This document shows, piece by piece, positions 1 to 64,000 of a stretch of 64,000 nucleotides of DNA (the stretch's first letter is position 1; each line of letters opens with the position of its first letter). This DNA is from Eledone cirrhosa (Eukaryota): positions 40,114,001-40,178,000 of the forward strand of contig OZ024740.1 of assembly GCA_964016885.1 (NCBI GenBank), written 5' to 3'. The notes beneath the pieces are model-generated. The model was not told the origin of the DNA. It made no database searches and was given only the letters and a program-made list of their open reading frames with translations. The position numbers were made by a program, and so were the translations under genes.

Positions 1-3000
1 GACACTGTTCTATCATTGACACTGTTCTATCATTACCACTGGGTTCTATCATTACCACTGTTCTATCATTGACACTGTTCGATCATTGACACTGTTCTAT
101 CATTACCACTGTGTTCTATCATTGACACTGTTCTATCAATGACACTGTTCTATCATTGACACTGTTCTATCATTACCACTGTGTTCTATCATTGACACTG
201 ATCTATCATTACCACTGTGTTCTATCATTGACACTGTTCTATCATTGACACTGTTCTATCATTACCACTGTGTTCTATCATTACCACTGTTCTATCATTG
301 ACACTGTTCTATCATTACCACTGTGTTCTATCATTGACACTGTTCTATCATTGACACTGTTCTATCATTGACACTGTTCTATCATTACCACTGTGTTCTA
401 TCATTGACACTGTTCTATCATTGACACTGTTCTATCATTACCACTATGTTCTATCATTGACACTGTTCTATCATTACCACTGTGTTCTATCATTGACACT
501 GTTCTATCATTACCACTGTTCTATCATTGACACTGTTCTATCATTACCACTGTGTTCTATCATTGACACTGTTCTATCATTACCACTATGTTCTATCATT
601 GACACTGTTCTATCATTAACACTGTGCTCTATCATTGACACTGTTCTATCATTGACACTGTTCTATCATTACCACTATGTTCTATCATTGACACTGTTCT
701 ATCATTACCACTGTGTTCTATCATTACCACTGTTCTATCATTGACACTGTTCTATCATTACCACTGTATTCTATCATTGAATCTGTTCTATCATTACCAC
801 TGTGTTCTATCATTGACACTGTTCTATCATTACAACTGTGCTCTAACATTGACACTGTTCTATCATTGACACTGTTCTATCATTACCACTGTTCTATCAT
901 TGACACTGTTCTATCATTACCACTATGTTCTATCATTGACACTGTTCTATCATTAACACTGTTCTATCATTACCACTGTGTTCTATCATTGACACTGTTC
1001 TATCATTGCCACTGTTCTATCATTGACACTGTTCTATCATTACCACTATGTTCTATCATTGACACTGTTCTATCATTGACACTGTTCTATCATTACCACT
1101 GTGTTCTATCATTGACACTGTTCTATCATTGACACTGTTCTATCATTGACACTGTTCTATCATTACCACTGTGTTCTATCATTGACACTGTTCTATCATT
1201 ACCACTGTGTTCTATCATTACCACTGTTCTATCATTGACACTGTTCTATCATTGACACTGTGTTCTATCATTGACACTGTTCTATCATTACCACTGTGTT
1301 CTATCATTGACACTGTTCTATCATTGACACTGTTCTATCATTACCACTGTTTTCTATCATTGACACTGTTCTATCATTGACACTGTTCTATCATTACCAC
1401 TATGTTCTATCATTGACACTGTTCTATCATTGACACTGTTCTATCATTACCACTGTGTTCTATCATTGAGACTGTTCTATCATTGACACTGTTCTATCAT
1501 TGACACTGTTCTATCATTACCACTGGGTTCTATCATTACCACTGTTCTATCATTGACACTGTTCTATCATTGACACTGTTCTATCATTACCACTGTGTTC
1601 TATCATTGACACTGTTCTATCACTGACACTGTTCTATCATTGACACTGTTCTATCATTACCACTGTGTTCTATCATTGACACTGTTCTATCATTACCACT
1701 GTGTTCTATCATTGACACTGTTCTATCATTGACACTGTTCTATCATTACCACTGTTCTATCATTGACACTGTTCTATCATTACCACTGGGTTCTATCATT
1801 ACCACTGTTCTATCATTGATACTGTTCTATCATTGACACTGTTCTATCATTACCACTGTGTTCTATCATTGACACTGTTCTATCACTGACACTGTTCTAT
1901 CATTGACACTGTTCTATCATTACCACTGTGTTCTATCATTGACACTGTTCTATCATTACCACTGTGTTCTATCATTGACACTGTTCTATCATTGACACTG
2001 TTCTATCATTACCACTGTTCTATCATTGACACTGTTCTATCATTACCACTGGGTTCTATCATTACCACTGTTCTATCATTGACACTGTTCTATCATTACC
2101 ACTGTGTTCTATCATTGACACTGTTCTATCACTGACACTGTTCTATCATTGACACTGTTCTATCATTACTACTGTGTTCTATCATTGACACTGTTCTATC
2201 ATTGACACTGTTCTATCATTGACACTGTTCTATCATTACCACTGTGTTCTATCATTACCACTGTGTTCTATCATTGACACTGTTCTATCATTACCACTGG
2301 GTTCTATCATTACCACTGTTCTATCATTGACACTGTTCTATCATTGACACTGTTCTATCATTACCACTGTGTTCTATCATTACCACTGTGTTCTATCATT
2401 GACACTGTTCTATCATTACCACTGTGTTCTATCATTACCACTGTTCTATCATTGATACTGTTCTATCATTGACACTGATCTATCATTACCACTGTGTTCT
2501 ATCATTGACACTGTTCTATCATTGACACTGTTCTATCATTACCACTGTGTTCTATCATTACCACTGTTCTATCATTGACACTGTTCTATCATTACCACTG
2601 TGTTCTATCATTGACACTGTTCTATCATTACCACTGGGTTCTATCATTACCACTGTTCTATCATTGACACTGTTCTATCATTGACACTGTTCTATCATTA
2701 CCACTGTGTTCTATCATTACCACTGTGTTCTATCATTGACACTGTTCTATCATTACCACTGGGTTCTATCATTACCACTGTTCTATCATTGACACTGTTC
2801 TATCATTGACACTGTTCTATCATTGACACTGTTCTATCATTACCACTGTTCTATCATTGACACTGTTCTATCATTACCACTGGGTTCTATCATTACCACT
2901 GTTCTATCATTGATACTGTTCTATCATTGACACTGATCTATCATTACCACTGTGTTCTATCATTGACACTGTTCTATCATTGACACTGTTCTATCATTAC

Positions 3001-6000
3001 CACTGTGTTCTATCATTACCACTGTTCTATCATTGACACTGTTCTATCATTACCACTGTGTTCTATCATTGACACTGTTCTATCATTGACACTGTTCTAT
3101 CATTGACACTGTTCTATCATTACCACTGTGTTCTATCATTGACACTGTTCTATCATTACCACTGTGTTCTATCATTGACACTGTTCTATCATTACCACTA
3201 TGTTCTATCATTGACACTGTTCTATCATTACCACTGTGTTCTATCATTGACACTGTTCTATCATTACCACTGTTCTATCATTGACACTGTTCTATCATTA
3301 CCACTGTGTTCTATCATTGACACTGTTCTATCATTACCACTATGTTCTATCATTGACACTGTTCTATCATTAACACTGTGCTCTATCATTGACACTGTTC
3401 TATCATTGACACTGTTCTATCATTACCACTATGTTCTATCATTGACACTGTTCTATCATTACCACTGTGTTCTATCATTACCACTGTTCTATCATTGACA
3501 CTGTTCTATCATTACCACTGTGTTCTATCATTGAATCTGTTCTATCATTACCACTGTGTTCTATCATTGACACTGTTCTATCATTACAACTGTGCTCTAA
3601 CATTGACACTGTTCTATCATTGACACTGTTCTATCATTACCACTGTTCTATCATTGACACTGTTCTATCATTACCACTATGTTCTATCATTGACACTGTT
3701 CTATCATTAACACTGTTCTATCATTACCACTGTGTTCTATCATTGACACTGTTCTATCATTGCCACTGTTCTATCATTGACACTGTTCTATCATTACCAC
3801 TATGTTCTATCATTGACACTGTTCTATCATTGACACTGTTCTATCATTACCACTGTGTTCTATCATTGACACTGTTCTATCATTGACACTGTTCTATCAT
3901 TGACACTGTTCTATCATTACCACTGTGTTCTATCATTGACACTGTTCTATCATTACCACTGTGTTCTATCATTACCACTGTTCTATCATTGACACTGTGT
4001 TCTATCATTGACACTGTTCTATCATTACCACTGTGTTCTATCATTGACACTGTGTTCTATCATTGACACTGTTCTATCATTACCACTGTGTTCTATCATT
4101 GACACTGTTCTATCATTGACACTGTTCTATCATTACCACTGTTTTCTATCATTGACACTGTTCTATCATTGACACTGTTCTATCATTACCACTATGTTCT
4201 ATCATTGACACTGTTCTATCATTGACACTGTTCTATCATTACCACTGTGTTCTATCATTGAGACTGTTCTATCATTGACACTGTTCTATCATTGACACTG
4301 TTCTATCATTACCACTGGGTTCTATCATTACCACTGTTCTATCATTGACACTGTTCTATCATTGACACTGTTCTATCATTACCACTGTGTTCTATCATTG
4401 ACACTGTTCTATCACTGACACTGTTCTATCATTGACACTGTTCTATCATTACCACTGTGTTCTATCATTGACACTGTTCTATCATTACCACTGTGTTCTA
4501 TCATTGACACTGTTCTATCATTGACACTGTTCTATCATTACCACTGTTCTATCATTGACACTGTTCTATCATTACCACTGGGTTCTATCATTACCACTGT
4601 TCTATCATTGATACTGTTCTATCATTGACACTGTTCTATCATTACCACTGTGTTCTATCATTGACACTGTTCTATCACTGACACTGTTCTATCATTGACA
4701 CTGTTCTATCATTACCACTGTGTTCTATCATTGACACTGTTCTATCATTACCACTGTGTTCTATCATTGACACTGTTCTATCATTGACACTGTTCTATCA
4801 TTACCACTGTTCTATCATTGACACTGTTCTATCATTACCACTGGGTTCTATCATTACCACTGTTCTATCATTGACACTGTTCTATCATTACCACTGTGTT
4901 CTATCATTGACACTGTTCTATCACTGACACTGTTCTATCATTGACACTGTTCTATCATTACCACTGTGTTCTATCATTGACACTGTTCTATCATTGACAC
5001 TGTTCTATCATTGACACTGTTCTATCATTACCACTGTGTTCTATCATTACCACTGTGTTCTATCATTGACACTGTTCTATCATTACCACTGGGTTCTATC
5101 ATTGACACTGTTCTATCATTGACACTGTTCTATCATTACCACTGTGTTCTATCATTACCACTGTGTTCTATCATTGACACTGTTCTATCATTACCACTGT
5201 GTTCTATCATTACCACTGTTCTATCATTGACACTGTTCTATCATTACCACTGTGTTCTATCATTACCACTGTTCTATCATTACCACTGTGTTCTATCATT
5301 GACACTGTTCTATCATTACCACTGTGTTCTATCATTGACACTGTTCTATCATTACCACTGTTCTATCATTGACACTGTTCTATCATTACCACTGTGTTCT
5401 ATCATTGACACTGTTCTATCATTGGCACTGTTCTATCATTACCACTGTGTTCTATCATTGACATTGTTCTATCATTGGCACTGTTCTATCATTACCACTG
5501 TGTTCTATCATTGACATTGTTCTATCATTGACACTGTATTGTATCATTGACATTGTTCTATCATTACCACTGTGTTCTATCATTACCACTGTGTTCTATC
5601 ATTGACACTGTTCTATCATTACCACTGTGTTCTATCATTGACATTGGTCTATCATTGACACTGTTCTATCATTACCACTGTGTTCTATCATTGACACTGT
5701 TCTATCATTACCACTGTGTTCTATCATTGACACTGTTCTATCATTACCACTGTGTTCTATCATTGACATTGTTCTATCATTGGCACTGTTCTATCATTAC
5801 CACTGTGTTCTATCATTGACACTGTTCTATCATTACCACTGTGTTCTATCATTACCACTGTTCTATCATTGACACTGTTCTATCATTACCACTGTGTTCT
5901 ATCATTGACACTGTTCTATCATTACCACTGTGTTCTATCATTACCACTGTTCTATCATTGACACTGTTCTATCATTGACACTGTTCTATCATTGACACTG

Positions 6001-9000
6001 TTCTATCATTACCACTATGTTCTATCATTGACACTGTTCTATCATTACCACTTTGTTCTATCATTGACACTGTTCTATCATTACCACTGTGTTCTATCAT
6101 TGACACTGTTCTATCATTACCACTGTTCTATCATTGACACTGTTCTATCATTGACACTGTTCTATCATTGGCACTGTTCTATCATTACCACTGTGTTCTA
6201 TCATTGACACTGTTCTATCATTACCACTGTGTTCTATCATTACCACTGTTCTATCATTGACACTGTTCTATCATTGACACTGTTCTATCATTACCACTAT
6301 GTTCTATCATTGACACTGTTCTATCATTACCACTTTGTTCTATCATTGACACTGTTCTATCATTACCACTGTGTTCTATCATTGACACTGTTCTATCATT
6401 ACCACTGTTCTATCATTGACACTGTTCTATCATTACCACTGTGTTCTATCATTGACACTGTTCTATCATTACCACTATGTTCTATCATTGACACTGTTCT
6501 ATCATTACCACTGTGTTCTATCATTGACACTGTTCTATCATTACCACTGTTCTATCATTACCACTATGTTCTATCATTGACACTGTTCTATCATTACCAC
6601 TGTGTTCTATCATTGACACTGTTCTATCATTACCACTGTTCTATCATTGACACTGTTCTATCATTACCACTGTGTTCTATCATTGACACTGTTCTATCAT
6701 TGACACTGTTCTATCATTACCACTATGTTCTATCATTGACACTGTTCTATCATTAACACTGTGCTCTATCATTGACACTGTTCTATCATTGACACTGTTC
6801 TATCATTACCACTATGTTCTATCATTGACACTGTTCTATCATTACCACTGTGTTCTATCATTACCACTGTTCTATCATTGACACTGTTCTATCATTACCA
6901 CTGTGTTCTATCATTGAAACTGTTCTATCATTACCACTGTGTTCTATCATTGACACTGTTCTATCATTACCACTGTGCTCTATCATTGACACTGTTCTAT
7001 CATTGACACTGTTCTATCATTACCACTGTTCTATCAATGACACTGTTCTATCATTACCACTATGTTCTATCATTACCACTATGTTCTATCATTGACACTG
7101 TTCTATCATTGACACTGTTCTATCATTACCACTGTGTTCTATCATTGACACTGTGTTCTATCATTGACACTGTTCTATCATTACCACTGTGTTCTATCAT
7201 TGACACTGTTCTATCATTACCACTGTTCTATCATTGACACTGTTCTATCATTACCACTGTGTTCTATCATGGACACTGTTCTATCATTACCACTGTGTTC
7301 TATCATTGACACTGTTCTATCATTACCACTATGTTCTATCATTGACACTGTTCTATCATTACCACTGTGTTCTATCATTGACACTGTTCTATCATTACCA
7401 CTGTTCTATCATTGACACTGTTCTATCATTACCACTGTGTTCTATCATTGAAACTGTTCTATCATTACCACTGTGTTCTATCATTGACACTGTTCTATCA
7501 TTACCACTGTGCTCTATCATTGACACTGTTCTATCATTGACACTGTTCTATCATTAACACTGTGCTCTATCATTGACACTGTTCTATCATTGACACTGTT
7601 CTATCATTACCACTGTGTTCTATCATTACCACTGTTCTATCATTGACACTGTTCTATCATTACCACTGTGTTCTATCATTGACACTGTTCTATCATTACC
7701 ACTGTGCTCTATCATTGACACTGTTCTATCATTGACACTGTTCTATCATTACCACTGTTCTATCATTGACACTGTTCTATCATTACCACTGTGTTCTATC
7801 ATTGACACTGTTCTATCATTGACACTGTTCTATCATTACCACTGTGTTCTATCATTGACACTGTTCTATCATTGACACTGTTCTATCATTACCACTATGT
7901 TCTATCATTGACACTGTTCTATCATTGACACTGTTCTATCATTACCACTGTGTTCTATCATTGACACTGTTCTATCATTACCACTGTGTTCTATCATTGA
8001 CACTGTTCTATCATTGACGCTGTTCTATCATTGACACTGTTCTATCATTACCACTGTGTTCTATCATTGACACTGTTCTATCACTGACACTGTTCTATCA
8101 TTGACACTGTTCTATCATTGACACTGTTCTATCATTACCACTGGGTTCTATCATTACCACTGTTCTATCATTGACACTGTTCGATCATTGACACTGTTCT
8201 ATCATTACCACTGTGTTCTATCATTGACACTGTTCTATCAATGACACTGTTCTATCATTGACACTGTTCTATCATTACCACTGTGTTCTATCATTGACAC
8301 TGATCTATCATTACCACTGTGTTCTATCATTGACACTGTTCTATCATTGACACTGTTCTATCATTACCACTGTGTTCTATCATTACCACTGTTCTATCAT
8401 TGACACTGTTCTATCATTACCACTGTGTTCTATCATTGACACTGTTCTATCATTGACACTGTTCTATCATTGACACTGTTCTATCATTACCACTGTGTTC
8501 TATCATTGACACTGTTCTATCATTACCACTGTGTTCTATCATTGACACTGTTCTATCATTACCACTATGTTCTATCATTGACACTGTTCTATCATTACCA
8601 CTGTGTTCTATCATTGACACTGTTCTATCATTACCACTGTTCTATCATTGACACTGTTCTATCATTACCACTGTGTTCTATCATTGACACTGTTCTATCA
8701 TTACCACTATGTTCTATCATTGACACTGTTCTATCATTAACACTGTGCTCTATCATTGACACTGTTCTATCATTGACACTGTTCTATCATTACCACTATG
8801 TTCTATCATTGACACTGTTCTATCATTACCACTGTGTTCTATCATTACCACTGTTCTATCATTGACACTGTTCTATCATTACCACTGTGTTCTATCATTG
8901 AATTTGTTCTATCATTACCACTGTGTTCTATCATTGACACTGTTCTATCATTACAACTGTGCTCTAACATTGACACTGTTCTATCATTGACACTGTTCTA

Positions 9001-12000
9001 TCATTACCACTGTTCTATCATTGACACTGTTCTATCATTACCACTATGTTCTATCATTGACACTGTTCTATCATTAACACTGTTCTATCATTACCACTGT
9101 GTTCTATCATTGACACTGTTCTATCATTGACACTGTTCTATCATTGACACTGTTCTATCATTACCACTATGTTCTATCATTGACACTGTTCTATCATTGA
9201 CACTGTTCTATCATTACCACTGTGTTCTATCATTGACACTGTTCTATCATTGACACTGTTCTATCATTGACACTGTTCTATCATTACCACTGTGTTCTAT
9301 CATTGACACTGTTCTATCATTACCACTGTGTTCTATCATTACCACTGTTCTATCATTGACACTGTTCTATCATTGACACTGTGTTCTATCATTGACACTG
9401 TTCTATCATTACCACTGTGTTCTATCATTGACACTGTTCTATCATTGACACTGTTCTATCATTACCACTGTGTTCTATCATTGACACTGTTCTATCATTG
9501 ACACTGTTCTATCATTACCACTATGTTCTATCATTGACACTGTTCTATCATTGACACTGTTCTATCATTACCACTGTGTTCTATCATTGAGACTGTTCTA
9601 TCATTGACACTGTTCTATCATTGACACTGTTCTATCATTACCACTGGGTTCTATCATTACCACTGTTCTATCATTGACACTGTTCTATCATTGACACTGT
9701 TCTATCATTACCACTGTGTTCTATCATTGACACTGTTCTATCACTGACACTGTTCTATCATTGACACTGTTCTATCATTACCACTGTGTTCTATCATTGA
9801 CACTGTTCTATCATTACCACTGTGTTCTATCATTGACACTGTTCTATCATTGACACTGCTCTATCATTACCACTGTTCTATCATTGACACTGTTCTATCA
9901 TTACCACTGGGTTCTATCATTACCACTGTTCTATCATTGATACTGTTCTATCATTGACACTGTTCTATCATTACCACTGTGTTCTATCATTGACACTGTT
10001 CTATCACTGACACTGTTCTATCATTGACACTGTTCTATTATTACCACTGTGTTCTATCATTGACACTGTTCTATCATTACCACTGTGTTCTATCATTGAC
10101 ACTGTTCTATCATTGACACTGTTCTATCATTACCACTGTTCTATCATTGACACTGTTCTATCATTACCACTGGGTTCTATCATTACCACTGTTCTATCAT
10201 TGACACTGTTCTATCATTACCACTGTGTTCTATCATTGACACTGTTCTATCACTGACACTGTTCTATCATTGACACTGTTCTATCATTACCACTGTGTTC
10301 TATCATTGACACTGTTCTATCATTGACACTGTTCTATCATTGACACTGTTCTATCATTACCACTGTGTTCTATCATTACCACTGTGTTCTATCATTGACA
10401 CTGTTCTATCATTACCACTGGGTTCTATCATTACCACTGTTCTATCATTGACACTGTTCTATCATTGACACTGTTCTATCATTACCACTGTGTTCTATCA
10501 TTACCACTGTGTTCTATCATTGACACTGTTCTATCATTACCACTGTGTTCTATCATTACCACTGTTCTATCATTGACACTGTTCTATCATTACCACTGTG
10601 TTCTATCATTACCACTGTTCTATCATTACCACTGTGTTCTATCATTGACACTGTTCTATCATTACCACTGTTCTATCATTGACACTGTTCTATCATTACC
10701 ACTGGGTTCTATCATTGACACTGTTCTATCATTACCACTGTGTTCTATCATTACCACTGTGTTCTATCATTGACACTGTTCTATCATTACCACTGTTCTA
10801 TCATTGACACTGTTCTATCATTACCACTGTTCTATCATTGACACTGTTCTATCATTACCACTGTTCTATCATTGACACTGTTCTATCATTACCACTGTTC
10901 TATCATTGACACTGTTCTATCACTGACACTGTTCTATCATTACCACTGTTCTATCATTGACACTGTGCTCTATCATTGACACTGTGCTCTATCATTGACA
11001 CTGTGTTCTATCATTGACACTGTTCTATCATTACCACTGTTCTATCATTGACACTGTTCTATCATTACCACTGTGTTCTATCATTGACACTGTTCTATCA
11101 TTACCACTATGTTCTATCATTGACACTGTTCTATCATTACCACTGTGCTCTATCATTGACACTGTTCTATCATTGACACTGTTCTATCATTACCACTATG
11201 TTCTATCATTGACACTGTTCTATTATTACCACTGTGTTCTATCATTACCACTGTTCTATCATTGACACTGTTCTATCATTACCACTGTGTTCTATCATGG
11301 ACACTGTTCTATCATTACCACTGTGCTCTATCATTGACACTGTTCTATTATTGACACTGTTCTATCATTACCACTGTTCTATCATTGACACTGTTCTATC
11401 ATTACCACTATGTTCTATCATTGACACTGTTCTATCATTGACACTGTTCGATCATTGACACTGTTCTATCATTACCACTGTGTTCTATCATTGACATTGT
11501 TCTATCATTGGCACTGTTCTATCATTACCACTGTGTTCTATCATTGACACTGTTCTATCATTACCACTGTTCTATCATTGACACTGTTCTATCATTACCA
11601 CTGTGTTCTATCATTGACACTGTTCTATCATTGACGCTGTTCTATCATTACCACTATGTTCTATCATTGACACTGTTCTATCATTACCACTGTGTTCTAT
11701 CATTGACACTGTTCTATCATTACCACTGTGTTCTATCATTGACACTGTTCTATCATTGACACTGTTCTATCATTACCACTGTGTTCTATCATTGACACTG
11801 TTCTATCATTACCACTATGTTCTATCATTGACACTGTTCTATCATTACCACTGTGTTCTATCATTGACACTGTTCTATCATTACCACTGTTCTATCATTA
11901 CCACTATGTTCTATCATTGACACTGTTCTATCATTACCACTGTGTTCTATCATTGACACTGTTCTATCATTACCACTGTTCTATCATTGACACTGTTCTA

Positions 12001-15000
12001 TCATTACCACTGTGTTCTATCATTGACACTGTTCTATCATTAACACTGTGCTCTATCATTGACACTGTTCTCTATCATTGACACTGTTCTATCATTACCA
12101 CTATGTTCTATCATTGACACTGTTCTATCATTACCACTGTGTTCTATCATTACCACTGTTCTATCATTGACACTGTTCTATCATTACCACTGTGTTCTAT
12201 CATTGAAACTGTTCTATCATTACCACTGTGTTCTATCATTGACACTGTTCTATCATTACCACTGTGCTCTATCATTGACACTGTTCTATCATTGACACTG
12301 TTCTATCATTGACACTGTTCTATCATTACCACTATGTTCTATCATTGACACTGTTCTATCATTGACACTGTTCTATCATTACCACTGTGTTCTATCATTG
12401 ACACTGTTCTATCATTGACACTGTTCTATCATTGACACTGTTCTATCATTACCACTGTGTTCTATCATTGACACTGTTCTATCATTACCACTGTGTTCTA
12501 TCATTACCACTGTTCTATCATTGACACTGTTCTATCATTGACACTGTGTTCTATCATTGACACTGTTCTATTATTACCACTGTGTTCTATCATTGACACT
12601 GTTCTATCATTGACACTGTTCTATCATTACCACTGTGTTCTATCATTGACACTGTTCTATCATTGACACTGTTCTATCATTACCACTATGTTCTATCATT
12701 GACACTGTTCTATCATTGACACTGTTCTATCATTACCACTGTGTTCTATCATTGAGACTGTTCTATCATTGACACTGTTCTATCATTGACACTGTTCTAT
12801 CATTACCACTGGGTTCTATCATTACCACTGTTCTATCATTGACACTGTTCTATCATTACCACTGTGTTCTATCATTGACACTGTTCTATCACTGACACTG
12901 TTCTATCATTGACACTGTTCTATCATTACCACTGTGTTCTATCATTGACACTGTTCTATCATTACCACTGTGTTCTATCATTGACACTGTTCTATCATTG
13001 ACACTGTTCTATCATTGACACTGTTCTATCATTACCACTGGGTTCTATCATTACCACTGTTCTATCATTGATACTGTTCTATCATTGACACTGTTCTATC
13101 ATTACCACTGTGTTCTATCATTGACACTGTTCTATCACTGACACTGTTCTATCATTGACACTGTTCTATCATTACCACTGTGTTCTATCATTGACACTGT
13201 TCTATCATTACCACTGTGTTCTATCATTGACACTGTTCTATCATTGACACTGTTCTATCATTACCACTGTTCTATCATTGACACTGTTCTATCATTACCA
13301 CTGGGTTCTATCATTACCACTGTTCTATCATTGACACTGTTCTATCATTTCCAGTGTTCTATCATTGACACTGTTCTATCACTGACACTGTTCTATCATT
13401 GACACTGTTCTATCATTACCACTGTGTTCTATCATTGACACTGTTCTATCATTGACACTGTTCTATCATTACCACTGTGTTCTATCATTGACACTGTTCT
13501 ATCATTACCACTGGGTTCTATCATTACCACTGTTCTATCATTGACACTGTTCTATCATTGACACTGTTCTATCATTGACACTGTTCTATCATTACCACTG
13601 TGTTCTATCATTACCACTGTGTTCTATCATTGACACTGTTCTATCATTACCACTGTGTTCTATCATTACCACTGTTCTATCATTGACACTGTTCTATCAT
13701 TACCACTGTGTTCTATCATTACCACTGTTCTATCATTACCACTGTGTTCTATCATTGACACTGTTCTATCATTACCACTGTGTTCTATCATTGACACTGT
13801 TCTATCATTACCACTGTTCTATCATTGACACTGTTCTATCATTACCACTGGGTTCTATCATTGACACTGTTCTATCATTACCACTGTTTTCTATCATTAC
13901 CACTGTGTTCTATCATTGACACTGTTCTATCATTACCACTGTTCTATCATTACCACTGTTCTATCATTGACACTGTTCTATCATTACCACTGTTCTATCA
14001 TTGACACTGTTCTATCATTACCACTGTTCTATCATTGACACTGTTCTATCATTACCACTGTTCTATCATTGACACTGTTCTATCACTGACACTGTTCTAT
14101 CATTACCTCTGTTCTATCATTGACACTGTGCTCTATCATTGACACTGTGCTCTATCATTGACACTGTTCTATCATTACCACTGTTCTATCATTGACACTG
14201 TTCTATCATTACCACTGTGTTTTATCATTGACAATGTTCTATCATTACTACTATGTTCTATCATTGACACTGTTCTATCATTACCACTGTGCTCTATCAT
14301 TGACACTGTTCTATCATTACCACTATGTTCTATCCTTGACACTGTTCTATTATTACCACTGTGTTCTATCATTAACACTGTTCTATCATTGACACTGTTC
14401 TATCATTACCACTGTGTTCTATCATTGACACTGTTCTATCATTACCACTGTGTTCTATCATGGACACTGTTCTATCATTACCACTGTGCTCTATCATTGA
14501 CACTGTTCTATCATTGACACTGTTCTATCATTACCACTGTTCTATCATTGACACTGTTCTATCATTACCACTATGTTCTATCATTGACACTGTTCTATCA
14601 TTGACACTGTTCTATCATTACCACTGTCTTCTATCATTGACATTGTTCTATCATTGGCACTGTTCTATCATTACCACTGTGTTCTATCATTGACACTGTT
14701 CTATCATTACCACTGTGTTCTATCATTACCACTGTTCTATCATTGACACTGTTCTATCATTACCACTGTGTTCTATCATTGACACTGTTCTATCATTGAC
14801 ACTGTTCTATCATTGACGCTGTTCTATCATTACCACTATGTTCTATCATTGACACTGTTCTATCATTACCACTGTGTTCTATCATTGACACTGTTCTATC
14901 ATTACCACTGTGTTCTATCATTGACACTGTTCTATCATTACCACTGTTCTATCATTGACACTGTTCTATCATTACCACTGTGTTCTATCATTGACACTGT

Positions 15001-21000: not shown

Positions 21001-21290
21001 ATTGACACTGTTCTATCATTGACACTGTTCTATCATTGACACTGTTCTATCATTACCACTGTTCTATCAGTGACACTGTTCTATCACTGACACTGTTCTA
21101 TCATTGACACTGTTCTATCACTGACACTGTTCTATCATTACCACTGTTCTATCATTGACACTGTGCTCTATCATTGACACTGTACTCTATCATTGACACT
21201 GTGTACTATCATTTCCACTATGTTCTATCATTGACACTGTTCTATCATTACCACTGTTCTATCATTGACACTGTCCTCTATCATTCCCTG
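1..21290. repeat. 17/19-bp satellite array (TTGACACTGTTCTATCA / TTACCACTG[TG]TTCTATCA), >=21 kb, roughly 1200 monomers, open at left edge
   Basis: Uninterrupted head-to-tail monomers are visible directly; the last units degenerate at ~21160-21290. Copy number is estimated from length divided by unit size. Confidence 0.99.
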
Positions 21291-21295
21291 TCTAC

Positions 21296-21336
21296 TACTA
21301 ACAGAAATAATATCTCTTCTTTATTTGTTTTTCCAG
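21296..21336 (+). promoter_or_regulatory. TIMM22: Branch point (TACTAAC 21296-21302), polypyrimidine tract and 3' splice site (TTCCAG 21336) of a TIMM22 5'-UTR intron
   Basis: Perfect TACTAAC with the branch A 35 nt before the end of ...tctcttctttatttgtttttccAG. The ATG follows 24 nt after the acceptor. Confidence 0.85.
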
Positions 21337-21360
21337 GTTATTGTTTATAATATAACGACA

Positions 21361-21580
21361 ATGTCTGGTCTGTCAATAAATGAAAATAAAGACTCATCTG
21401 CAGAGGATATCAGTAATTTCAATTTTATTATTGATCATGTAATTAATCACAAAGTGAAACAGACGGATACATTTATTCCTTTGGGAGGAATACCTCAACT
21501 TTCCAGACCACAGGAAGAAGTTATGATTAGCCGAATGTTTGAAAGTTGTCTTTTCAAATCAGGTGTAAGCTGTATTTTAG
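21361..21580 (+). CDS. TIMM22: Mitochondrial inner-membrane translocase Tim22, coding exon 1
   Basis: ATG 21361; reads ...QEEVMISRMFESCLFKSGVSCILG, the Tim22 'ESC.FK...SC..G' motif. Donor G|gtaagt at 21581, phase 1. Confidence 0.93.
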
Positions 21581-21732: not shown

Positions 21733-22045
21733 AATTCTCATGGGAATTTACATAAACTCTCAAGGACTTAGTACTTTCTATCTGGTGGGAATCTACATAA
21801 ACTCTAGATGATAATACTTTCTATCTGGTGGGAATCTACATAAACTCTAGATGATAATACTTTCTATCTTGTAGGAACCTACATGAATTCTGGAGGACGT
21901 CATACTTTCTATCTCATGGGAACCTGCATAAACTCTAGCGGACTTAGTATTTTCTATCTTGTGGGAATCTACATAAACTCTAGAGGACAATATTTTCTAT
22001 CTCGTGGGAACCTACATGAATTCTGGAGGACTTAATACTGTCTAT
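21733..22045. repeat. 43-bp minisatellite (~7 diverged copies) in a TIMM22 intron
   Basis: Unit ACTTTCTATCTGGTGGGAATCTACATAAACTCTAGATGATAAT; tctggtggga recurs at 21781 and 21824. Confidence 0.9.
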
Positions 22046-22217
22046 CATTTATTTATCTGCAGAGTTTGATCAGTTTTCACAAGTCATTCATTCACCCAGC
22101 TTCTTCATAGATTTATTGATTGGATGCTGCAACCTGGGGCCTTATCAATTCTTAATGTGTCCTGTTTAATAAATTACTTCAGAAACAAAAATTTAAATAT
22201 TTATTTCTTATTTGAAG

Positions 22218-51900: not shown

Positions 51901-54900
51901 AGAATACAATACACAGTTATTGACACATTAGAATACAATACACAGTTATTGACACATTACAATACACAGTTATTGACACATGACAATACAATACACAGTT
52001 ACTGACACATTACAATACAATACACATTACAATACAATACACAGTTATTGACACATTACAATAAATACACAGCTAGTGACACATTACAATACAATACACA
52101 GTTATTGACACAATACAATACACAGTTATTGACACATTACAATACAATACACAGTTATTGACACATTAGAATACAATACACAGTTATTGACACAATACAA
52201 TACACAGTTACTGACACATTACAATACAATACACAGTTACTGACACATTACAATACAATACACAGTTACTGACACATTACAATACAATACACAGTTACTG
52301 ACACATTACAATACAATACACAGTTATTGACACATTACAATAAATACACAGCTAGTGACACATTACAATACAACACACAGTTATTGACACATTACAATAC
52401 AACACACAGTTATTGACACATTACAATACAATACACAGTTATTGACACATTACAATACAATACACAGTTATTGACACAATACAATACAAACACAGTTACT
52501 GACACATTACAATACACAGTTATTGACACATTAGAATACAATACACAGTTATTGACACATTACAATACGATACACAGTTATTGACACATTACAATACAAT
52601 ACACAGTTATTGACACATTAGAATACAATACACAGTTATTGACACATTACAATACGATACACAGTTATTGATACATTACAATACAACACATAGTTATTGA
52701 CACATTACAATACAATACACAGTTACTGACACATTACAATACAATACACAGTTACTGACACATTACAATACAATACACAGTTACTGACACATTACAATAC
52801 ACAGTTATTGACACATTAAAATACAATACACAGTTACTGACACATTACAATACACAGTTATTGACACATTACAATAAAATACACAGTTATTGACACATTA
52901 CAATACAATACACAGTTACTGACACATTACAATACAATACACAGTTACTGACACATTACAATACACAGTTACTGACACATTAGAAGACAATACACAGTTA
53001 TTGACACATTACAATACAATACACAGTTACTGACACATTACAATACAATACACAGTTATTGACACATTACAATACAATACACAGTTACTGACACATTACA
53101 ATACAATACACAGTTATTGACACATTACAATACAATACACAGTTATTGACACATTACAATACAATACACAGTTACTGAAACATTACAATACAATACACAG
53201 ATACTGACACATTACAATACAATACACAGTTATTGACACATTACAATACAATACACAGTTATTGACACATTACAATACAATACACAGTTACTGACACATT
53301 AGAATACAATACACAGTTACTGACACATTACAATACAATACACAGTTATTGACACGTTACAATACAATACACAGTTACTGACACATTACAATACAATTCA
53401 CAGTTACTGACACATTAGAATACAATACACAGTTATTGACACATTACAATATAATACAGTTACTGACACATTACAATACAATACACAGTTATTGACACAT
53501 TACAATACAATACACATTTACTGACACATTAGAATACAATACACAGTTATTGACACATTACAATACAATACATAGTTATTGACACGTTAGAATACAATAC
53601 ACAGTTATTGACACATTACAATACAATACACAGTTACTGACACATTAGAATACAATACACAGTTATTGACACATTACAATACAATACACAGCTATTGAAA
53701 CATTACCATACAATACACATTTATTGACACAATACAATACACAGTTATTGACACATTACGATACAATACAATACACAGTTACTGACACATTAGAATACAA
53801 TACACAGTTACTGACACATTAGAATACAATACACAGTTATTGACACATTACAATACACAGTTATTGACACATTACATTACAATACAATGTTACTGACACA
53901 TTACAATACAATACACAGTTATTGACACATTACAATACACAGTTATTGACACATTACAATACAATACACAGTTACTGACACATTAGAATACGATACACAG
54001 TTATTGACACATTACAATACAATACACAGTTACTGACACATTACAATACGATACACAGTTATTGACACATTACAATACAATACACAGTTACTGACACATT
54101 ACAATACAATACACAGTTATTGACACATTACAATACAATACACAGTTATTGACACATTACAATACCATACACTGTTACTGACACATTAGAATACAATACA
54201 CAGTTATTGACACATTACAATACAATACACAGTTATTGACACATTACAATAGAATACACAGTTATTGATACATTACAATAAAATACACAGTTACTGACAC
54301 ATTACAATACACAGTTATTGACACATTACAATACAATACAGTTATTGACACATTAGAATACAATACACAGTTACTGACACATTACAATACACAGTTACTG
54401 ACACGTTAGAATACAATACACAGTTATTGACACATTACAATACAATACCATACACAGTTACCGACACATTACAATACAATACACAGTTATTGACACATTA
54501 CAATACAATACACAGTTATTGACACATTACAATACTATACACAGTTACTGACACATTACAATACAAAGTTATTGACACATTACAATACAATACACAGTTA
54601 TTGACACATTACAATGCAATACAATACACAGTTACTGCCACATTACAATACAATACACAGTTACTGACACATTACAATACAATACACAGTTATTGACACA
54701 TTACAATACAATACACAGTTACTGACACATTACAATACAATACACAGTTATTGACACATTACAATACAATACACAGTTACTGACACATTACAATACAATA
54801 CACAGTTATTGACACATTACAATACAATACACAGTTATTGACACATTACAATACCATACACTGTTACTGACACATTAGAATACAATACACAGTTATTGAC

Positions 54901-57900
54901 ACATTACAATACAATACACAGTTATTGACACATTACAATAAAATACACAGTTATTGACACATTACAATACAATACACAGTTATTGACACATTACAATACA
55001 ATACACAGTTACTGACACATTACAATACAATACACAGTTACTGACACATTAGAATACAATACACAGTTATTGACACATTAGAGTACAATACAGTTATTGA
55101 CACATTACAATACAATACAGTTATTGACACATTACAATACAATACAATACACAGTTATTGACACATTACAATACAATACACAGTTATTGACACATTACAA
55201 TACAATACACAGTTACTGACACATTAGAATACAATACACAGTTATTGACACATTACAATACAATACACAGTTACTGACACATTAGAATACAATACACAGT
55301 TATTGACACATTACAATACAGTACACAGTTATTGACACATTACAATACACAGTTATTGACACATTACAATACAATACACAGTTACTGACACATTACAATA
55401 CAATACACAGTTACTGACACACTACAATACAATACACAGTTATTGACACATTACAATACAATACACAGTTATTGACAATACAATAAACAGTTACTGACAC
55501 ATTACAATATAATACACAGTTATTGACACATTAGAATACAATACACAGTTATTGACACATTAGAATACAATAAACAGTTATTGACACATTACAATACAAT
55601 ACACAGTTATTGACACATTACAATACAATACACAGTTATTGACACATTAGAATACAATACACAGTTATTGACACATTACAATACACAGTTATTGACACAT
55701 TACAATACACAGTTATTGACACAATACAATACACAATTACTGACACATTACAATACAATACACAGTTACTGACACATTAGAATACAATACACAGTTATTG
55801 ACACATTACAATACAATACACAGTTATTGACCCATTACAATACAATACACAGTTATTGACATTAGAATACAATACACAGTTACTGACACATTACAATATA
55901 ATACACAGTTATTGACACTTTACAATACAATACACAGTTATTGACACATTACAATACCATACACTGTTACTGACACATTAGAATACAATACACAGTTATT
56001 GACACATTACAATAGAATACACAGTTATTGACACATTACAATAGAATACACAGTTATTGACACATTACAATACAATACACAGTTACTGACACATTACAAT
56101 ACACAGTTACTGACACGTTACAATACAATACACAGTTATTGACACATTAGAATACAATACACAGTTATTGACACATTACAATACAATACCATACACAGTT
56201 ACCGACACATTACAATACACAGTCACTGACACATTACAATACAATACACAGTTATTGACCCATTACAATACAATACACAGTTATTGACACATTACAATAC
56301 AATACACAGTTACTGACACATTACAATACAATACACAGTTATTGACACATTACAATACAATACACAGTTATTGACACATTAGAATACAATACACAGTTAC
56401 TGACACATTACAATACACAGTTATTGAGACATTACAATACAATACAGTTATTGACACATTAGAATACAATACACAGTTACTGACACATTAAAATACACAG
56501 TTACTGACACGTTACAATACAATACACAGTTATTGACAAATTACAATACAATACCATACACAGTTACCGACACATTACAATACACAGTCACTGACACATT
56601 ACAATACAATACACAGTTATTGACCCATTGCAATACAATACACAGTTATTGACATTACAATACAATACACAGTTATTGACACGTTACAATACAATACACA
56701 GTTACTGACACATTACAATACAATACACAGTTATTGACACATTAGAATACAATACACAGTTACTGACACATTACAATACAATACACAGTTATTGACACAT
56801 TACAATACAATACACAGTTATTGACACATTACAATACAATACACAGTTATTGACACGTTACAATACAATACACAGTTATTGACACATTACAATACAATAC
56901 ACATTTACTGACACATTAGAATACAATACACAGTTACTGACACATTACAATACACAGTTATTGACACGTTACAATACAATTCACAGTTACTGACACATTA
57001 CAATACAATACACAGTTATTGACACATTACAATACAATACACAGTTACTGACACATTACAATACAATACACAGTTATTGACACATTACAATACAATACAC
57101 AGTTATTGACACATTACAATACAATACACAGTTACTGAAACATTACAATACAATACACAGATACTGACACATTACAATACAATACACAGTTATTGACACA
57201 TTACAATACAATACACAGTTATTGACACATTACAATACAATACACAGTTACTGACACATTAGAATACAATACACAGTTACTGACACATTACAATACAATA
57301 CACAGTTATTGACACGTTACAATACAATACACAGTTACTGACACATTACAATACAATTCACAGTTACTGACACATTAGAATACAATACACAGTTATTGAC
57401 ACATTACAATATAATACAGTTACTGACACATTACAATACAATACACAGTTATTGACACATTACAATACAATACACATTTACTGACACATTAGAATACAAT
57501 ACACAGTTATTGACACATTACAATACAATACATAGTTATTGACACGTTAGAATACAATACACAGTTATTGACACATTACAATACAATACACAGTTACTGA
57601 CACATTAGAATACAATACACAGTTATTGACACATTACAATACAATACACAGCTATTGAAACATTACCATACAATACACATTTATTGACACAATACAATAC
57701 ACAGTTATTGACACATTACGATACAATACAATACACAGTTACTGACACATTAGAATACAATACACAGTTACTGACACATTAGAATACAATACACAGTTAT
57801 TGACACATTACAATACACAGTTATTGACACATTACATTACAATACAATGTTACTGACACATTACAATACAATACACAGTTATTGACACATTACAATACAC

Positions 57901-60900
57901 AGTTATTGACACATTACAATACAATACACAGTTACTGACACATTAGAATACGATACACAGTTATTGACACATTACAATACAATACACAGTTACTGACACA
58001 TTACAATACGATACACAGTTATTGACACATTACAATACAATACACAGTTACTGACACATTACAATACAATACACAGTTATTGACACATTACAATACAATA
58101 CACAGTTATTGACACATTACAATACCATACACTGTTACTGACACATTAGAATACAATACACAGTTATTGACACATTACAATACAATACACAGTTATTGAC
58201 ACATTACAATAGAATACACAGTTATTGACACATTACAATAAAATACACAGTTACTGACACATTACAATACACAGTTATTGACACATTACAATACAATACA
58301 GTTATTGACACATTAGAATACAATACACAGTTACTGACACATTACAATACACAGTTACTGACACGTTAGAATACAATACACAGTTATTGACACATTACAA
58401 TACAATACCATACACAGTTACCGACACATTACAATACAATACACAGTTATTGACACATTACAATACAATACACAGTTATTGACACATTACAATACTATAC
58501 ACAGTTACTGACACATTACAATACAAAGTTATTGACACATTACAATACAATACACAGTTATTGACACATTACAATGCAATACAATACACAGTTACTGCCA
58601 CATTACAATACAATACACAGTTACTGACACATTACAATACAATACACAGTTATTGACACATTACAATACAATACACAGTTACTGACACATTACAATACAA
58701 TACACAGTTATTGACACATTACAATACAATACACAGTTACTGACACATTACAATACAATACACAGTTATTGACACATTACAATACAATACACAGTTATTG
58801 ACACATTACAATACCATACACTGTTACTGACACATTAGAATACAATACACAGTTATTGACACATTACAATACAATACACAGTTATTGACACATTACAATA
58901 CAATACACAGTTATTGACACATTACAATACAATACACAGTTATTGACACATTACAATACAATACACAGTTACTGACACATTACAATACAATACACAGTTA
59001 CTGACACATTAGAATACAATACACAGTTATTGACACATTAGAGTACAATACAGTTATTGACACATTACAATACAATACAGTTATTGACACATTACAATAC
59101 AATACAATACACAGTTATTGACACATTACAATACAATACACAGTTATTGACACATTACAATACAATACACAGTTACTGACACATTAGAATACAATACACA
59201 GTTATTGACACATTACAATACAATACACAGTTACTGACACATTAGAATACAATACACAGTTATTGACACATTACAATACAGTACACAGTTATTGACACAT
59301 TACAATACACAGTTATTGACACATTACAATACAATACACAGTTACTGACACATTACAATACAATACACAGTTACTGACACACTACAATACAATACACAGT
59401 TATTGACACATTACAATACAATACACAGTTATTGACAATACAATAAACAGTTACTGACACATTACAATATAATACACAGTTATTGACACATTAGAATACA
59501 ATACACAGTTATTGACACATTAGAATACAATAAACAGTTATTGACACATTACAATACAATACACAGTTATTGACACATTACAATACAATACACAGTTATT
59601 GACACATTAGAATACAATACACAGTTATTGACACATTACAATACACAGTTATTGACACATTACAATACACAGTTATTGACACAATACAATACACAATTAC
59701 TGACACATTACAATACAATACACAGTTACTGACACATTAGAATACAATACACAGTTATTGACACATTACAATACAATACACAGTTATTGACCCATTACAA
59801 TACAATACACAGTTATTGACATTAGAATACAATACACAGTTACTGACACATTACAATATAATACACAGTTATTGACACTTTACAATACAATACACAGTTA
59901 TTGACACATTACAATACCATACACTGTTACTGACACATTAGAATACAATACACAGTTATTGACACATTACAATAGAATACACAGTTATTGACACATTACA
60001 ATAGAATACACAGTTATTGACACATTACAATACAATACACAGTTACTGACACATTACAATACACAGTTACTGACACGTTACAATACAATACACAGTTATT
60101 GACACATTAGAATACAATACACAGTTATTGACACATTACAATACAATACCATACACAGTTACCGACACATTACAATACACAGTCACTGACACATTACAAT
60201 ACAATACACAGTTATTGACCCATTACAATACAATACACAGTTATTGACACATTACAATACAATACACAGTTACTGACACATTACAATACAATACACAGTT
60301 ATTGACACATTACAATACAATACACAGTTATTGACACATTAGAATACAATACACAGTTACTGACACATTACAATACACAGTTATTGAGACATTACAATAC
60401 AATACAGTTATTGACACATTAGAATACAATACACAGTTACTGACACATTAAAATACACAGTTACTGACACGTTACAATACAATACACAGTTATTGACAAA
60501 TTACAATACAATACCATACACAGTTACCGACACATTACAATACACAGTCACTGACACATTACAATACAATACACAGTTATTGACCCATTGCAATACAATA
60601 CACAGTTATTGACATTACAATACAATACACAGTTATTGACACGTTACAATACAATACACAGTTACTGACACATTACAATACAATACACAGTTATTGACAC
60701 ATTAGAATACAATACACAGTTACTGACACATTACAATACAATACACAGTTATTGACACATTACAATACAATACACAGTTATTGACACGTTACAATACAAT
60801 ACACAGTTATTGACACATTACAATACAATACACATTTACTGACACATTAGAATACAATACACAGTTACTGACACATTACAATACACAGTTATTGACACGT

Positions 60901-63900
60901 TACAATACAATTCACAGTTACTGAGTCATTTGAATACAATACACAGTTATTGACACATTACAATATAATACACAGTTACTGACACATTACAATACAATAC
61001 ACAGTTATTGACACATTACAATACAATACACATTTACTGACACATTAGAATACAATACACAGTTATTGACACATTACAATACAATACACAGTTACTGACA
61101 CATTAGAATACAATACACAGTTATTAACACGTTACAATACAATACACAGTTACTGACACGTTACAATACAATACACAGTTATTGACACATTACAATACAA
61201 TACACAGTTATTGACACATTACAATACACAGTTATTGACATATTAGAATACAATACACAGTTATTGACACATTACAATACAATACACAGTTATTGACACA
61301 TTACAATACACAGTTATTGACACATTACAATACACAGTTATTGACACATTAGAATACAATACACAGTTATTGACACATTACAATACAATACACAGTTACT
61401 GACACATTAGAATACAATACACAGTTATTGACACATTACAATACAATACACAGTTATCGACACATTAGAATACAATACACAGTTACTGACACATTAGAAT
61501 ACAATACACAGTTATTGACACATTACAATACAATACACAGTTACTGACACATTACAATACAATACACAGTTATTGACACATTACAATACAAGACACAGTT
61601 ATTGACACATTACAAGACAATACACAGTTATTGACACATTACAATACAATACACAGTTACTGACACATTAGAATACAATACACAGTTATTGACACATTAC
61701 AATACAATACACAGTTACTGACACATTAGAATACAATACACAGTTATTGACACATTACAATACAATACACAGTTATTGACACATTACAATACAATACACA
61801 GTTACTGACACATTAGAATACAATACACAGTTATTGACACATTACAATACAATACACAGTTATTGACACATTACAATAGAATACACAGTTATTGACACAT
61901 TACAATAGAATACACAGTTATTGACACATTACAATACAATACAGTTATTGACACATTAGAATACAATACACAGTTACTGACACATTACAATACACAGTTA
62001 CTGACACGTTACAATACAATACACAGTTATTGACACATTAGAATACAATACACAGTTATTGACACATTACAATACAATACCATACACAGTTACCGACACA
62101 TTACAATACACAGTCACTGACACATTACAATACAATACACAGTTATTGACCCATTACAATACAATACACAGTTATTGACACATTACAATACAATACACAG
62201 TTACTGACACATTACAATACAATACACAGTTATTGACACGTTACAATACAATACACAGTTACTGACACATTACAATACAATACACAGTTATTGACACATT
62301 AGAATACAATACACAGTTACTGACACATTACAATACACAGTTATTGAGACATTACAATACAATACAGTTATTGACACATTAGAATACAATACACAGTTAC
62401 TGACACATTAAAATACACAGTTACTGACACGTTACAATACAATACACAGTTATTGACAAATTACAATACAATACCATACACAGTTACCGACACATTACAA
62501 TACACAGTCACTGACACATTACAATACAATACACAGTTATTGACCCATTGCAATACAATACACAGTTATTGACATTACAATACAATACACAGTTATTGAC
62601 ACGTTACAATACAATACACAGTTACTGACACATTACAATACAATACACAGTTATTGACACATTAGAATACAATACACAGTTATTGACACATTACAATACA
62701 ATACCATACACAGTTACCGACACATTACAATACACAGTCACTGACACATTACAATACAATACACAGTTATTGACCCATTACAATACAATACACAGTTATT
62801 GACACATTACAATACAATACACAGTTACTGACACATTAGAATACAATACACAGTTACTGACACATTACAATACACAGTTATTGAGACATTACAATACAAT
62901 ACAGTTATTGACACATTAGAATACAATACACAGTTACTGACACATTAAAATACACAGTTACTGACACGTTACAATACAATACACAGTTATTGACAAATTA
63001 CAATACAATACCATACACAGTTACCGACACATTACAATACACAGTCTCTGACACATTACAATACAATACACAGTTATTGACCCATTGCAATACAATACAC
63101 AGTTATTGACATTACAATACAATACACAGTTATTGACACGTTACAATACAATACACAGTTACTGACACATTACAATACAATACACAGTTATTGACACATT
63201 AGAATACAATACACAGTTACTGACACATTACAATACAATACACAGTTATTGACACATTACAATACAATACACAGTTATTGACACGTTACAATACAATACA
63301 CAGTTATTGACACATTACAATACAATACACATTTACTGACACATTAGAATACAATACACAGTTACTGACACATTACAATACACAGTTATTGACACGTTAC
63401 AATACAATTCACAGTTACTGAGTCATTTGAATACAATACACAGTTATTGACACATTACAATATAATACACAGTTACTGACACATTACAATACAATACACA
63501 GTTATTGACACATTACAATACAATACACATTTACTGACACATTAGAATACAATACACAGTTATTGACACATTACAATACAATACACAGTTACTGACACAT
63601 TAGAATACAATACACAGTTATTAACACGTTACAATACAATACACAGTTACTGACACGTTACAATACAATACACAGTTATTGACACATTACAATACAATAC
63701 ACAGTTATTGACACATTACAATACACAGTTATTGACACATTAGAATACAATACACAGTTATTGACACATTACAATACAATACACAGTTATTGACACATTA
63801 CAATACACAGTTATTGACACATTAGAATACAATACACAGTTATTGACACATTACAATACAATACACAGTTACTGACACATTAGAATACAATACACAGTTA

Positions 63901-64000
63901 TTGACACATTACAATACAATACACAGTTATCGACACATTAGAATACAATACACAGTTACTGACACATTAGAATACAATACACAGTTATTGACACATTACA
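33971..64000. repeat. 29-bp satellite array (GTTA[T/C]TGACACATTA[C/G]AATACAATACACA, with 24- and 34-bp variants), >=30 kb, roughly 1050 monomers, open at right edge
   Basis: Directly visible; length variants differ by one ATACA pentamer. No unique sequence interrupts the array. Confidence 0.99.

What the first reader, a model, noticed from the sequence alone, without database searches (positions are those of the whole stretch)
1..64000. Two convergent genes each carry a >20-kb satellite inside an intron, ending next to a 3' splice site
Seen: array 1 ends ~6 nt before TACTAAC and ~46 nt before the TIMM22 acceptor, leaving no room for a promoter. Array 2 starts 63 nt from the acceptor of an internal ROGDI exon. 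Inference: both arrays are transcribed as satellite-filled giant introns in mirror arrangement. Established: satellite intron gigantism is best known from Drosophila Y-linked fertility genes (kl-3, kl-5), whereas TIMM22 and ROGDI are conserved, broadly expressed genes.
Basis: partly seen in the sequence, partly recalled or inferred. Interest (0 to 1): 0.75.

Follow-up and report, generated by a model that had tools for sequence, protein, structure and literature searches.

The report
Repeat-swollen introns in octopod housekeeping genes
In a likely octopus-family genome, a 45-kb run of one short DNA repeat fills an intron of ROGDI and a 35-kb run of another likely fills the first intron of TIMM22, but the neighbouring genes are swollen the same way, so this is likely a by-product of repeat growth across a multi-megabase region rather than a paired design.

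Summary
Array 2 (29 bp, 44.7 kb) lies inside a 46.8-kb intron of single-copy ROGDI. Array 1 (17 bp, 34.5 kb) ends about 50 nt before an acceptor used in a spliced TIMM22 contig that carries 130 further upstream letters; that upstream exon was not located. ROGDI has a second, 101.5-kb array intron; neighbours SPT6 and BRAP carry 38.6- and 43-kb arrays ending about 2.3 kb from their acceptors. Units are nearly locus-private. Arrays make up 66% of 12 tiles at C1 33-41.2 Mb against 1.4% of 8 tiles beyond. An acceptor-side bias did not replicate (7/52 versus 8/54), so the mirror layout is incidental. Best reading: short introns inflated by runaway local minisatellite amplification; the array 2 unit may descend from its own splice junction. 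Closest known: CACNA1C TRACT, zebra finch dot-chromosome minisatellites, amphioxus mirages; not Drosophila Y loops. The scan already noted this on other DNA of this genome (DCP2, mTOR).

The parts
1..21285 (+). Array 1: 17/19-bp minisatellite, 3' part of a 34,537-bp array that starts 13,251 bp before the window; likely inside the TIMM22 5'UTR intron
   Evidence: all 268 genome-wide matches of a two-unit pattern are local; AG dinucleotides 0.3/kb on the sense strand against 114.8/kb on the other
21296..21302 (+). Branch-point-like TACTAAC
   Evidence: use as branch point not tested
21337..21580 (+). TIMM22 first coding exon (24-nt 5'UTR part, ATG at 21361), entered by splicing at acceptor 21335-21336
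   Evidence: spliced contig of run X4 starts at 21337 with 130 unaligned upstream letters; homology; acceptor score 15.5 against a median of 10.0 for true acceptors
21736..22046 (+). Small 43-bp minisatellite (7 copies) in the next TIMM22 intron
22218..22402 (+). TIMM22 coding exon 2
   Evidence: GT..AG joint of 637 nt in X4 only, absent from X1-X3; translation
23213..23285 (+). TIMM22 coding exon 3
   Evidence: translation; fits the 72 unlisted letters of X4 record 25
23800..25430 (+). High-copy interspersed repeat (LINE-like 3' fragment) in TIMM22 intron 3
   Evidence: 1624 of 1631 bases repeated elsewhere in the fetched DNA; depth near 10^6 in DNA runs; LINE label read by eye
26409..26488 (+). 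TIMM22 last coding exon to the stop; the X4 contig continues about 570 letters past 26560 as 3'UTR
29973..30029 (-). ROGDI last coding exon (residues 256-273 and stop)
31830..31913 (-). ROGDI exon 10 (residues 228-255)
33779..33907 (-). ROGDI exon 9 (residues 185-227); its acceptor is 63 nt from array 2
33971..64000 (-). Array 2: 29-bp minisatellite, part of a 44,715-bp array (to 78685) in the 46,777-bp ROGDI intron 8
   Evidence: of 63 genome-wide matches of a 68-nt pattern 41 are here and 22 in one 3.4-kb copy on C25

Best explanation
Array 2 lies inside a ROGDI intron and array 1 likely lies inside the 5'UTR intron of TIMM22; both are nearly locus-private minisatellites that likely grew in place inside once-short introns, as part of a satellite-rich domain of at least 8 Mb. 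Shown: positions, sizes, private units, multi-kilobase near-identical block duplications, the same swelling in SPT6 and BRAP, and use of the TIMM22 acceptor in a spliced contig. Inferred: a short tandem duplication seeds each array (for array 2 possibly a copy of its own intron-end/exon-start junction, about even odds); unequal exchange or break-induced replication then copies blocks of 2-8 kb; the cell tolerates this because branch point, pyrimidine tract and AG stay intact in the last 50-90 nt and exons are recognised by exon definition. Closeness to the acceptor follows from the intron having been short, not from a dedicated function.
For: ROGDI exons 1-8 lie beyond array 2 in order and phase, and the gene is single-copy; about 80% of its 175.5-kb coding span is array. 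TIMM22: spliced contig begins at 21337 with 130 foreign upstream letters; SPT6 ends at -32.5 kb and CpG-rich unique DNA at -19 to -14.2 kb drops to zero CpG just before array 1, as it does at the SPT6 first exon. Without array and interspersed repeats, ROGDI intron 8 has 435 nt left (372 + 63). Tandem blocks of 2.7-8.4 kb at 99.7-100% identity in arrays 1, 2, 3 and the SPT6 array. 17 different units among 18 arrays compared. Array share 54% of 634 kb locally, 66% of 12 tiles at 33-41.2 Mb, 1.4% of 8 tiles at 41.5-49 Mb, about 11% (arrays of 1 kb or more) in 39 evenly picked tiles genome-wide. Arrays end within 300 nt of 32 of 258 sampled splice sites, on both sides.
Against: The upstream TIMM22 exon was not located and no RNA was laid across the ROGDI junction, so transcription through either array is inferred. 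The TIMM22 evidence is one contig of one run whose library type is not on record. No orthologous intron could be measured, so 'once short' rests on subtraction within this genome. Three of the five giant arrays do end within 91 nt of an acceptor, and among arrays of 350 bp or more the pooled sample still leans to acceptors (12 of 123 versus 4 of 135, p=0.036, a cut chosen after the fact). The junction origin of array 2 has only P of about 0.01-0.04, and the same test gave a false positive for the 94-bp array.
Confidence: 0.78

Rival explanations
1. The arrays are selected regulatory spacers: giant introns placed against 3' splice sites delay or tune expression of TIMM22 and ROGDI, with a dedicated RNA-processing programme as for Drosophila Y-loop genes.
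For: Three giant arrays end 51-91 nt from acceptors; arrays 1 and 2 are almost free of sense-strand splice-site-like motifs (0.03 and 0.07 acceptors/kb against 2.3/kb in ordinary introns) and of AATAAA; 4 of 5 giant arrays are T-rich on the sense strand. Human TRACT length is associated with expression (PMC13131567, abstract).
Against: All four consecutive genes and two-thirds of a multi-megabase region are affected; units are unrelated; the 67-bp ROGDI and 42-bp SPT6 arrays carry 17-18 donor-like motifs per kb, so there is no general purge; the acceptor bias did not replicate.
Confidence: 0.1
2. Array 1 is not intronic: the 130 upstream letters come from a trans-spliced leader, an exon inside the array or a chimeric contig, and the array is upstream or intergenic DNA.
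For: The upstream exon was not found; several donor candidates at -16.2 to -14.4 kb score 7.3-10.0 and none can be singled out; X4 shows no depth on 21290-21336 although later introns have depth 8-14.
Against: Strong cis acceptor (score 15.5); the best donor-like score inside array 1 is 1.0; promoter-like CpG-rich DNA lies just beyond the far end of the array; 130 nt is longer than the spliced leaders I recall (recalled, not checked).
Confidence: 0.07
3. The arrays are assembly artefacts (over-expanded or misjoined repeats).
For: Some blocks are 100% identical over 2.8 kb; no long read spanning an array was seen; DNA runs are one sample, possibly the assembly's own.
Against: No gap in the region; gene order and exon phase are intact on both sides; unit variants change along the arrays; longest exact repeat 3.8 kb or less. 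Exact lengths may be off, but presence is unlikely to be false.
Confidence: 0.05

Closest known systems
Human intronic VNTR TRACT in CACNA1C (PMC13131567, abstract read; bioRxiv 10.1101/311795, search listing)
   Same: Locus-private unit of about 30 bp inside an intron, reaching 3-30+ kb, with variant units and expansion through perfect tracts
   Different: One locus in human; here 35-95 kb arrays occur in four consecutive conserved genes and across megabases
Minisatellite-rich euchromatin of zebra finch dot chromosomes (bioRxiv 10.1101/2025.10.14.682431, passages read; chicken dot chromosomes enriched for housekeeping genes, PMC9974502, passages read)
   Same: Gene-rich DNA that is about half minisatellite (51.3% there; 54-66% here), with the repeats concentrated in introns
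   Different: There GC-rich, degenerate 10-30-bp repeats on tiny chromosomes; here AT-rich, homogeneous single arrays of tens of kb at 33-41 Mb of a 443-Mb chromosome
Amphioxus 'mirage' minisatellites (PMC3087553, section 16 read)
   Same: Tandem copies of an intron-exon boundary that do not block normal splicing; fits the 28-bp SPT6 array well and array 2 moderately
   Different: The globin mirages have 3-6 units; array 2 has about 1,570 and is separated from the junction by a spacer; array 1 and the 67-bp array show no junction match
Drosophila Y-loop genes kl-3 and kl-5 (PMC6508621, passages read; PMC11207136, abstract read)
   Same: Satellite-filled introns transcribed with the gene
   Different: Megabase introns of 5-bp simple satellites, over 99% of the locus, spermatocyte-specific and needing Blanks and Heph; here 46-102-kb introns, 17-67-bp private units, conserved genes
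Tribolium castaneum euchromatic Cast1-9 satellites (bioRxiv 10.1101/2023.04.24.538079, passages read)
   Same: Arrays up to about 112 kb in gene-rich regions
   Different: Nine families spread over many loci; here nearly every array has its own unit

Membership tests
Drosophila-type Y-loop intron gigantism | Megabase-scale introns, over 99% of the locus | tested here: not met
   Introns of 46.8 and 101.5 kb; ROGDI span 80% array
Drosophila-type Y-loop intron gigantism | Simple (5-bp) satellite content | tested here: not met
   Units of 17, 29 and 67 bp
Drosophila-type Y-loop intron gigantism | Germline-restricted expression and dedicated RNA-binding proteins | not testable with these tools
   Tissue of run X4 not on record
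Intronic VNTR / giant minisatellite | Head-to-tail unit of 10-100 bp inside an intron | tested here: met
   Array 2 by exon mapping; array 1 by the spliced acceptor, donor not located
Intronic VNTR / giant minisatellite | Unit confined to one or very few loci | tested here: met
   Array 1: 268 of 268 exact matches local; array 2: one further 3.4-kb copy; exact patterns miss diverged copies
Intronic VNTR / giant minisatellite | Variable copy number between alleles or individuals | not testable with these tools
   One assembly; contigs of short reads cannot span the arrays
Amphioxus-type mirage (array 2) | Unit homologous to the adjacent intron-exon boundary | tested here: inconclusive
   Own acceptor ranks first of 48 and the AG is in register; 5 of 500 shuffles reach the score; 85 of 2000 at the array end; far flank not significant; the test has one shown false positive
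Amphioxus-type mirage (array 1) | Unit homologous to the adjacent intron-exon boundary | tested here: not met
   5 of 47 other acceptors and 224 of 500 shuffles score as high; branch-point spacer not significant
Amphioxus-type mirage | Normal splicing past the repeats | tested here: inconclusive
   Seen at the TIMM22 acceptor; no RNA laid on the ROGDI junction

The most novel reading that the evidence does not exclude
C1 33-41 Mb is a sharply bounded chromosomal domain in which transcription itself drives exon-proximal seeds, including copied splice junctions, into private 30-100-kb arrays in essential genes, and intron RNA from such arrays is reverse-transcribed to seed new arrays elsewhere (the C25 copy fused to half a SINE). 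It would be a natural series for watching satellites being born inside active housekeeping genes.
Probability: 0.2. Interest if true: 0.7.

Novelty: new variant of a known kind. Interest (0 to 1): 0.42.

Why it matters
It shows that broadly conserved genes (BRAP, SPT6, TIMM22, ROGDI) tolerate introns that are over 90% tandem repeat, and it supplies dozens of independent, locus-private arrays for testing how minisatellites become satellite-sized and whether giant repetitive introns cost anything. In practice such genes will be split or truncated in short-read cephalopod assemblies and in annotations that cap intron size. The two-gene mirror picture itself carries no special meaning.

Tried and rejected
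(1) Acceptor-side bias: first sample 12 of 71 acceptors versus 5 of 81 donors within 300 nt (p=0.04); pre-set replication on 60 new loci 7 of 52 versus 8 of 54 (p=1.0); pooled 19 of 123 versus 13 of 135 (p=0.19). Of 170 loci, those without a site scoring 5 or more or with under 1 kb of flank were dropped; splice sites there are motif-called, not RNA-proven, and some loci share a gene. Rejected. (2) Mirage origin as a general rule: 3 of 8 local arrays ranked first at their own acceptor, but one of them (94 bp) is the end of a dispersed repeat with 20,847 matches; 1 of 12 acceptor-side arrays ranked first in the first genome-wide set and 0 of 7 in the second. (3) Locating the TIMM22 first exon: donor ranking and CpG profile give a zone (-19 to -14.2 kb), not an exon; my automatic TIMM22 model was wrong and was replaced by the RNA joints and hand reading. 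(4) General purge of splice signals from arrays: true for arrays 1 and 2, false for the 67- and 42-bp arrays. (5) C25 copy as a clean retrotransposed chimera: weakened, because a SINE 1.3 kb away is broken at the same position and the neighbourhood is a patchwork of local duplications. (6) No RNA holder was listed as such; X4 is taken as RNA only from its GT..AG joint. ROGDI splicing stays untested with RNA. (7) Link of arrays to low-CpG DNA: weak (rho -0.32, p=0.03 in 49 of 59 tiles; group test p=0.31). (8) Literature: searches listed nothing on satellite- or minisatellite-filled introns in octopods; passages of two octopus genome papers (PMC10700109, PMC6279123) give only intron sizes and transposons; PMC10030371 passages were not relevant. 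Supplements were not read, and most subscription journals are not searched.
Full report
Coordinates are window coordinates, extended to both sides; the window is G000:C1:40114001-40178000 on a 443-Mb sequence.

Observation. The window holds a 17-bp array (1-21285), 12.7 kb with two convergent genes, and a 29-bp array (33971-64000). The genes are TIMM22 on the plus strand and ROGDI on the minus strand by best hits to Octopus proteins, so the animal is likely an octopod (inference).

ROGDI. tblastn with the Octopus protein finds all 11 coding exons in order from 205497 to 29973, with GT-AG junctions in phase, and the gene has one locus in the assembly. Array 2 is 44,715 bp in a 46,777-bp intron. 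A second intron of 101,516 bp holds a 67-bp array of about 94 kb, broken by two LINE-like insertions, ending 91 nt from its acceptor; a third holds a 2.5-kb 94-bp array 163 nt from its acceptor. About 80% of the coding span is array. No RNA was laid on these junctions, so their use is inferred from homology.

TIMM22. The ATG lies 24 nt after the acceptor, so any intron holding array 1 is in the 5'UTR. In run X4 one 1,354-letter contig (depth 41) joins the exons with a GT..AG joint absent from three DNA runs, begins exactly at 21337, and has 130 more letters that do not lie on 21290-21336. That refutes initiation at 21300-21360 for this contig. The upstream gene SPT6 ends at -32.5 kb. Unique DNA is CpG-rich at -19 to -14.2 kb and CpG-free just before array 1, the pattern seen at the SPT6 first exon; reading this as promoter against methylated gene body is inference from general knowledge of molluscan methylation (recalled). 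Donor candidates there could not be told apart.

Context. SPT6 intron 2 (41,983 bp) holds a 38.6-kb 42-bp array, and a 46.5-kb intron of a gene with BRAP2 and zf-UBP domain matches (BRAP, name inferred) holds a 43-kb 28-bp array; both end about 2.3 kb from the acceptor. Four genes in a row thus carry five arrays over 30 kb; three end within 91 nt of an acceptor and two do not. Arrays of 1 kb or more are 54% of 634 kb around the window. In 10-kb tiles, arrays are 66% of 12 tiles between 33 and 41.2 Mb (7 tiles fully array) and 1.4% of 8 tiles between 41.5 and 49 Mb (p=0.001). In 39 evenly picked tiles elsewhere, arrays of 1 kb or more are about 11% and 3 tiles are fully array. Of six edge-running arrays next to conserved exons on other chromosomes that I followed, two reached 9 kb or more, and a further array of at least 14.5 kb turned up beside a third. 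Of 18 arrays compared, only two shared a unit.

How the arrays grew. Each array is built from a few unit variants and contains tandem blocks of 1-8 kb, many at 99.7-100% identity, which points to recent block-wise copying by unequal exchange or break-induced replication (inference). ROGDI intron 8 has 435 nt left once the array and 1,627 nt of interspersed repeat are removed, so an array seeded there at random would lie within 63 nt of the acceptor about one time in seven (arithmetic). Across 258 motif-called splice sites from Pfam exon matches, 32 had an array within 300 nt, and 20 of the 46 nearest arrays within 1 kb lay within 100 nt; short introns inflate this. The apparent acceptor bias of the first sample vanished in a pre-set replication.

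Where the seeds came from. The array 2 unit matches the ROGDI exon 9 junction with an exact 11-mer followed by the acceptor in register; it ranks first of 48 acceptors, with 5 of 500 shuffles as good, and the far flank adds nothing. The 28-bp SPT6 array runs into its junction and also ranks first (2 of 500 shuffles). The 94-bp array ranked first too but derives from a 20,847-match dispersed repeat, so I give the mirage origin of array 2 about even odds. Array 1 shows no significant match to its junction or branch-point region. Seeds are therefore mixed.

Why splicing survives. The last 50-90 nt keep branch-point-like motif, pyrimidine tract and AG. Arrays 1 and 2 are nearly free of sense-strand acceptor- and donor-like motifs and of AATAAA (0 and 2 copies), but the 67- and 42-bp arrays have 17-18 donor-like motifs per kb, so exon definition rather than purging of the repeats is the likelier safeguard (inference).

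A second copy of the array 2 unit. 22 of 63 matches lie in a 3.37-kb array on C25. It has a private variant in 21 units and lacks one common variant of array 2, so it expanded separately. In ROGDI-sense orientation it is fused to the 3' half of a SINE, with a TA-rich 9-nt direct repeat on both sides, as a reverse-transcribed chimera would be; but a neighbouring SINE is broken at the same position and the region is a patchwork of local duplications, so DNA-level template switching is at least as likely.

Comparison. It works like a very large intronic VNTR (CACNA1C TRACT, 3-30+ kb; PMC13131567, abstract) repeated over a domain, much as minisatellites make up 51.3% of zebra finch dot-chromosome euchromatin (passages). 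It is not a member of the Drosophila Y-loop class (passages). Mirages are described in amphioxus (section read); I took that lead from earlier notes of this scan. Four searches listed no paper on this in octopods. The scan has already noted the same swelling at DCP2 and mTOR and several junction-derived arrays elsewhere in this genome (unchecked AI notes).

Verdict. Real, larger than reported, apparently undescribed for octopods, but a regional and genome-wide property rather than a special pairing: new variant of a known kind, interest 0.42.

Noticed in passing
G000:C1 about 33-41.3 Mb (L291-L310): Sharply bounded domain: 66% of 12 tiles are tandem array, against 1.4% of 8 tiles at 41.5-49 Mb and none in a tile at 27 Mb. 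It is not at a chromosome end; an old fusion point or recombination-rich zone is untested.
   Followed up: partly
L043:4693-8062 (G000:C25:10444693-10448062): 3.4-kb copy of the ROGDI 29-bp repeat fused to the 3' half of a SINE, beside a SINE interrupted at the same position by a 60-nt insert; many other minisatellites nearby, several built from SINE or LINE pieces.
   Followed up: partly
L012-L024, window-relative 86955-187713: ROGDI intron 3 is 101.5 kb: a 67-bp array with two LINE-like insertions that have open frames of about 900 codons and 17 donor-like motifs per kb on the sense strand.
   Followed up: partly
L007:5038-6557: 1.5-kb 28-bp array in SPT6 intron 21 that runs into and resembles its own acceptor junction (best local mirage candidate).
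   Followed up: yes
L024, window-relative 188592-191045: 94-bp (2 x 47) array built from the end of a dispersed repeat with 20,847 exact matches that forms small tandem arrays at many loci.
   Followed up: partly
window-relative -322566 to -253613 (L052-L059) and from 278117 (L033, L207-L209): A 69-kb 37-bp array and a G-rich 31-bp array of about 30 kb; host genes not identified.
   Followed up: no
L297 and L298 (C1 39.0 and 39.3 Mb): The same 22-bp unit fills both tiles in opposite orientations; the only shared unit among 18 arrays compared.
   Followed up: no
L072 (C9), L160 (C25): Arrays whose units best match their own acceptor or donor junction (rank first of 79 and of 86), further mirage candidates.
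   Followed up: partly
window 20400-21150: A unit variant that reads as a branch-point consensus (CACTGAC) is concentrated in the last part of array 1: 16 copies in the last 2.5 kb against 0-4 per 2 kb elsewhere.
   Followed up: partly
P0003: An annotated Octopus sinensis ROGDI isoform lacks the exon that precedes the array 2 intron (residues 152-184).
   Followed up: no
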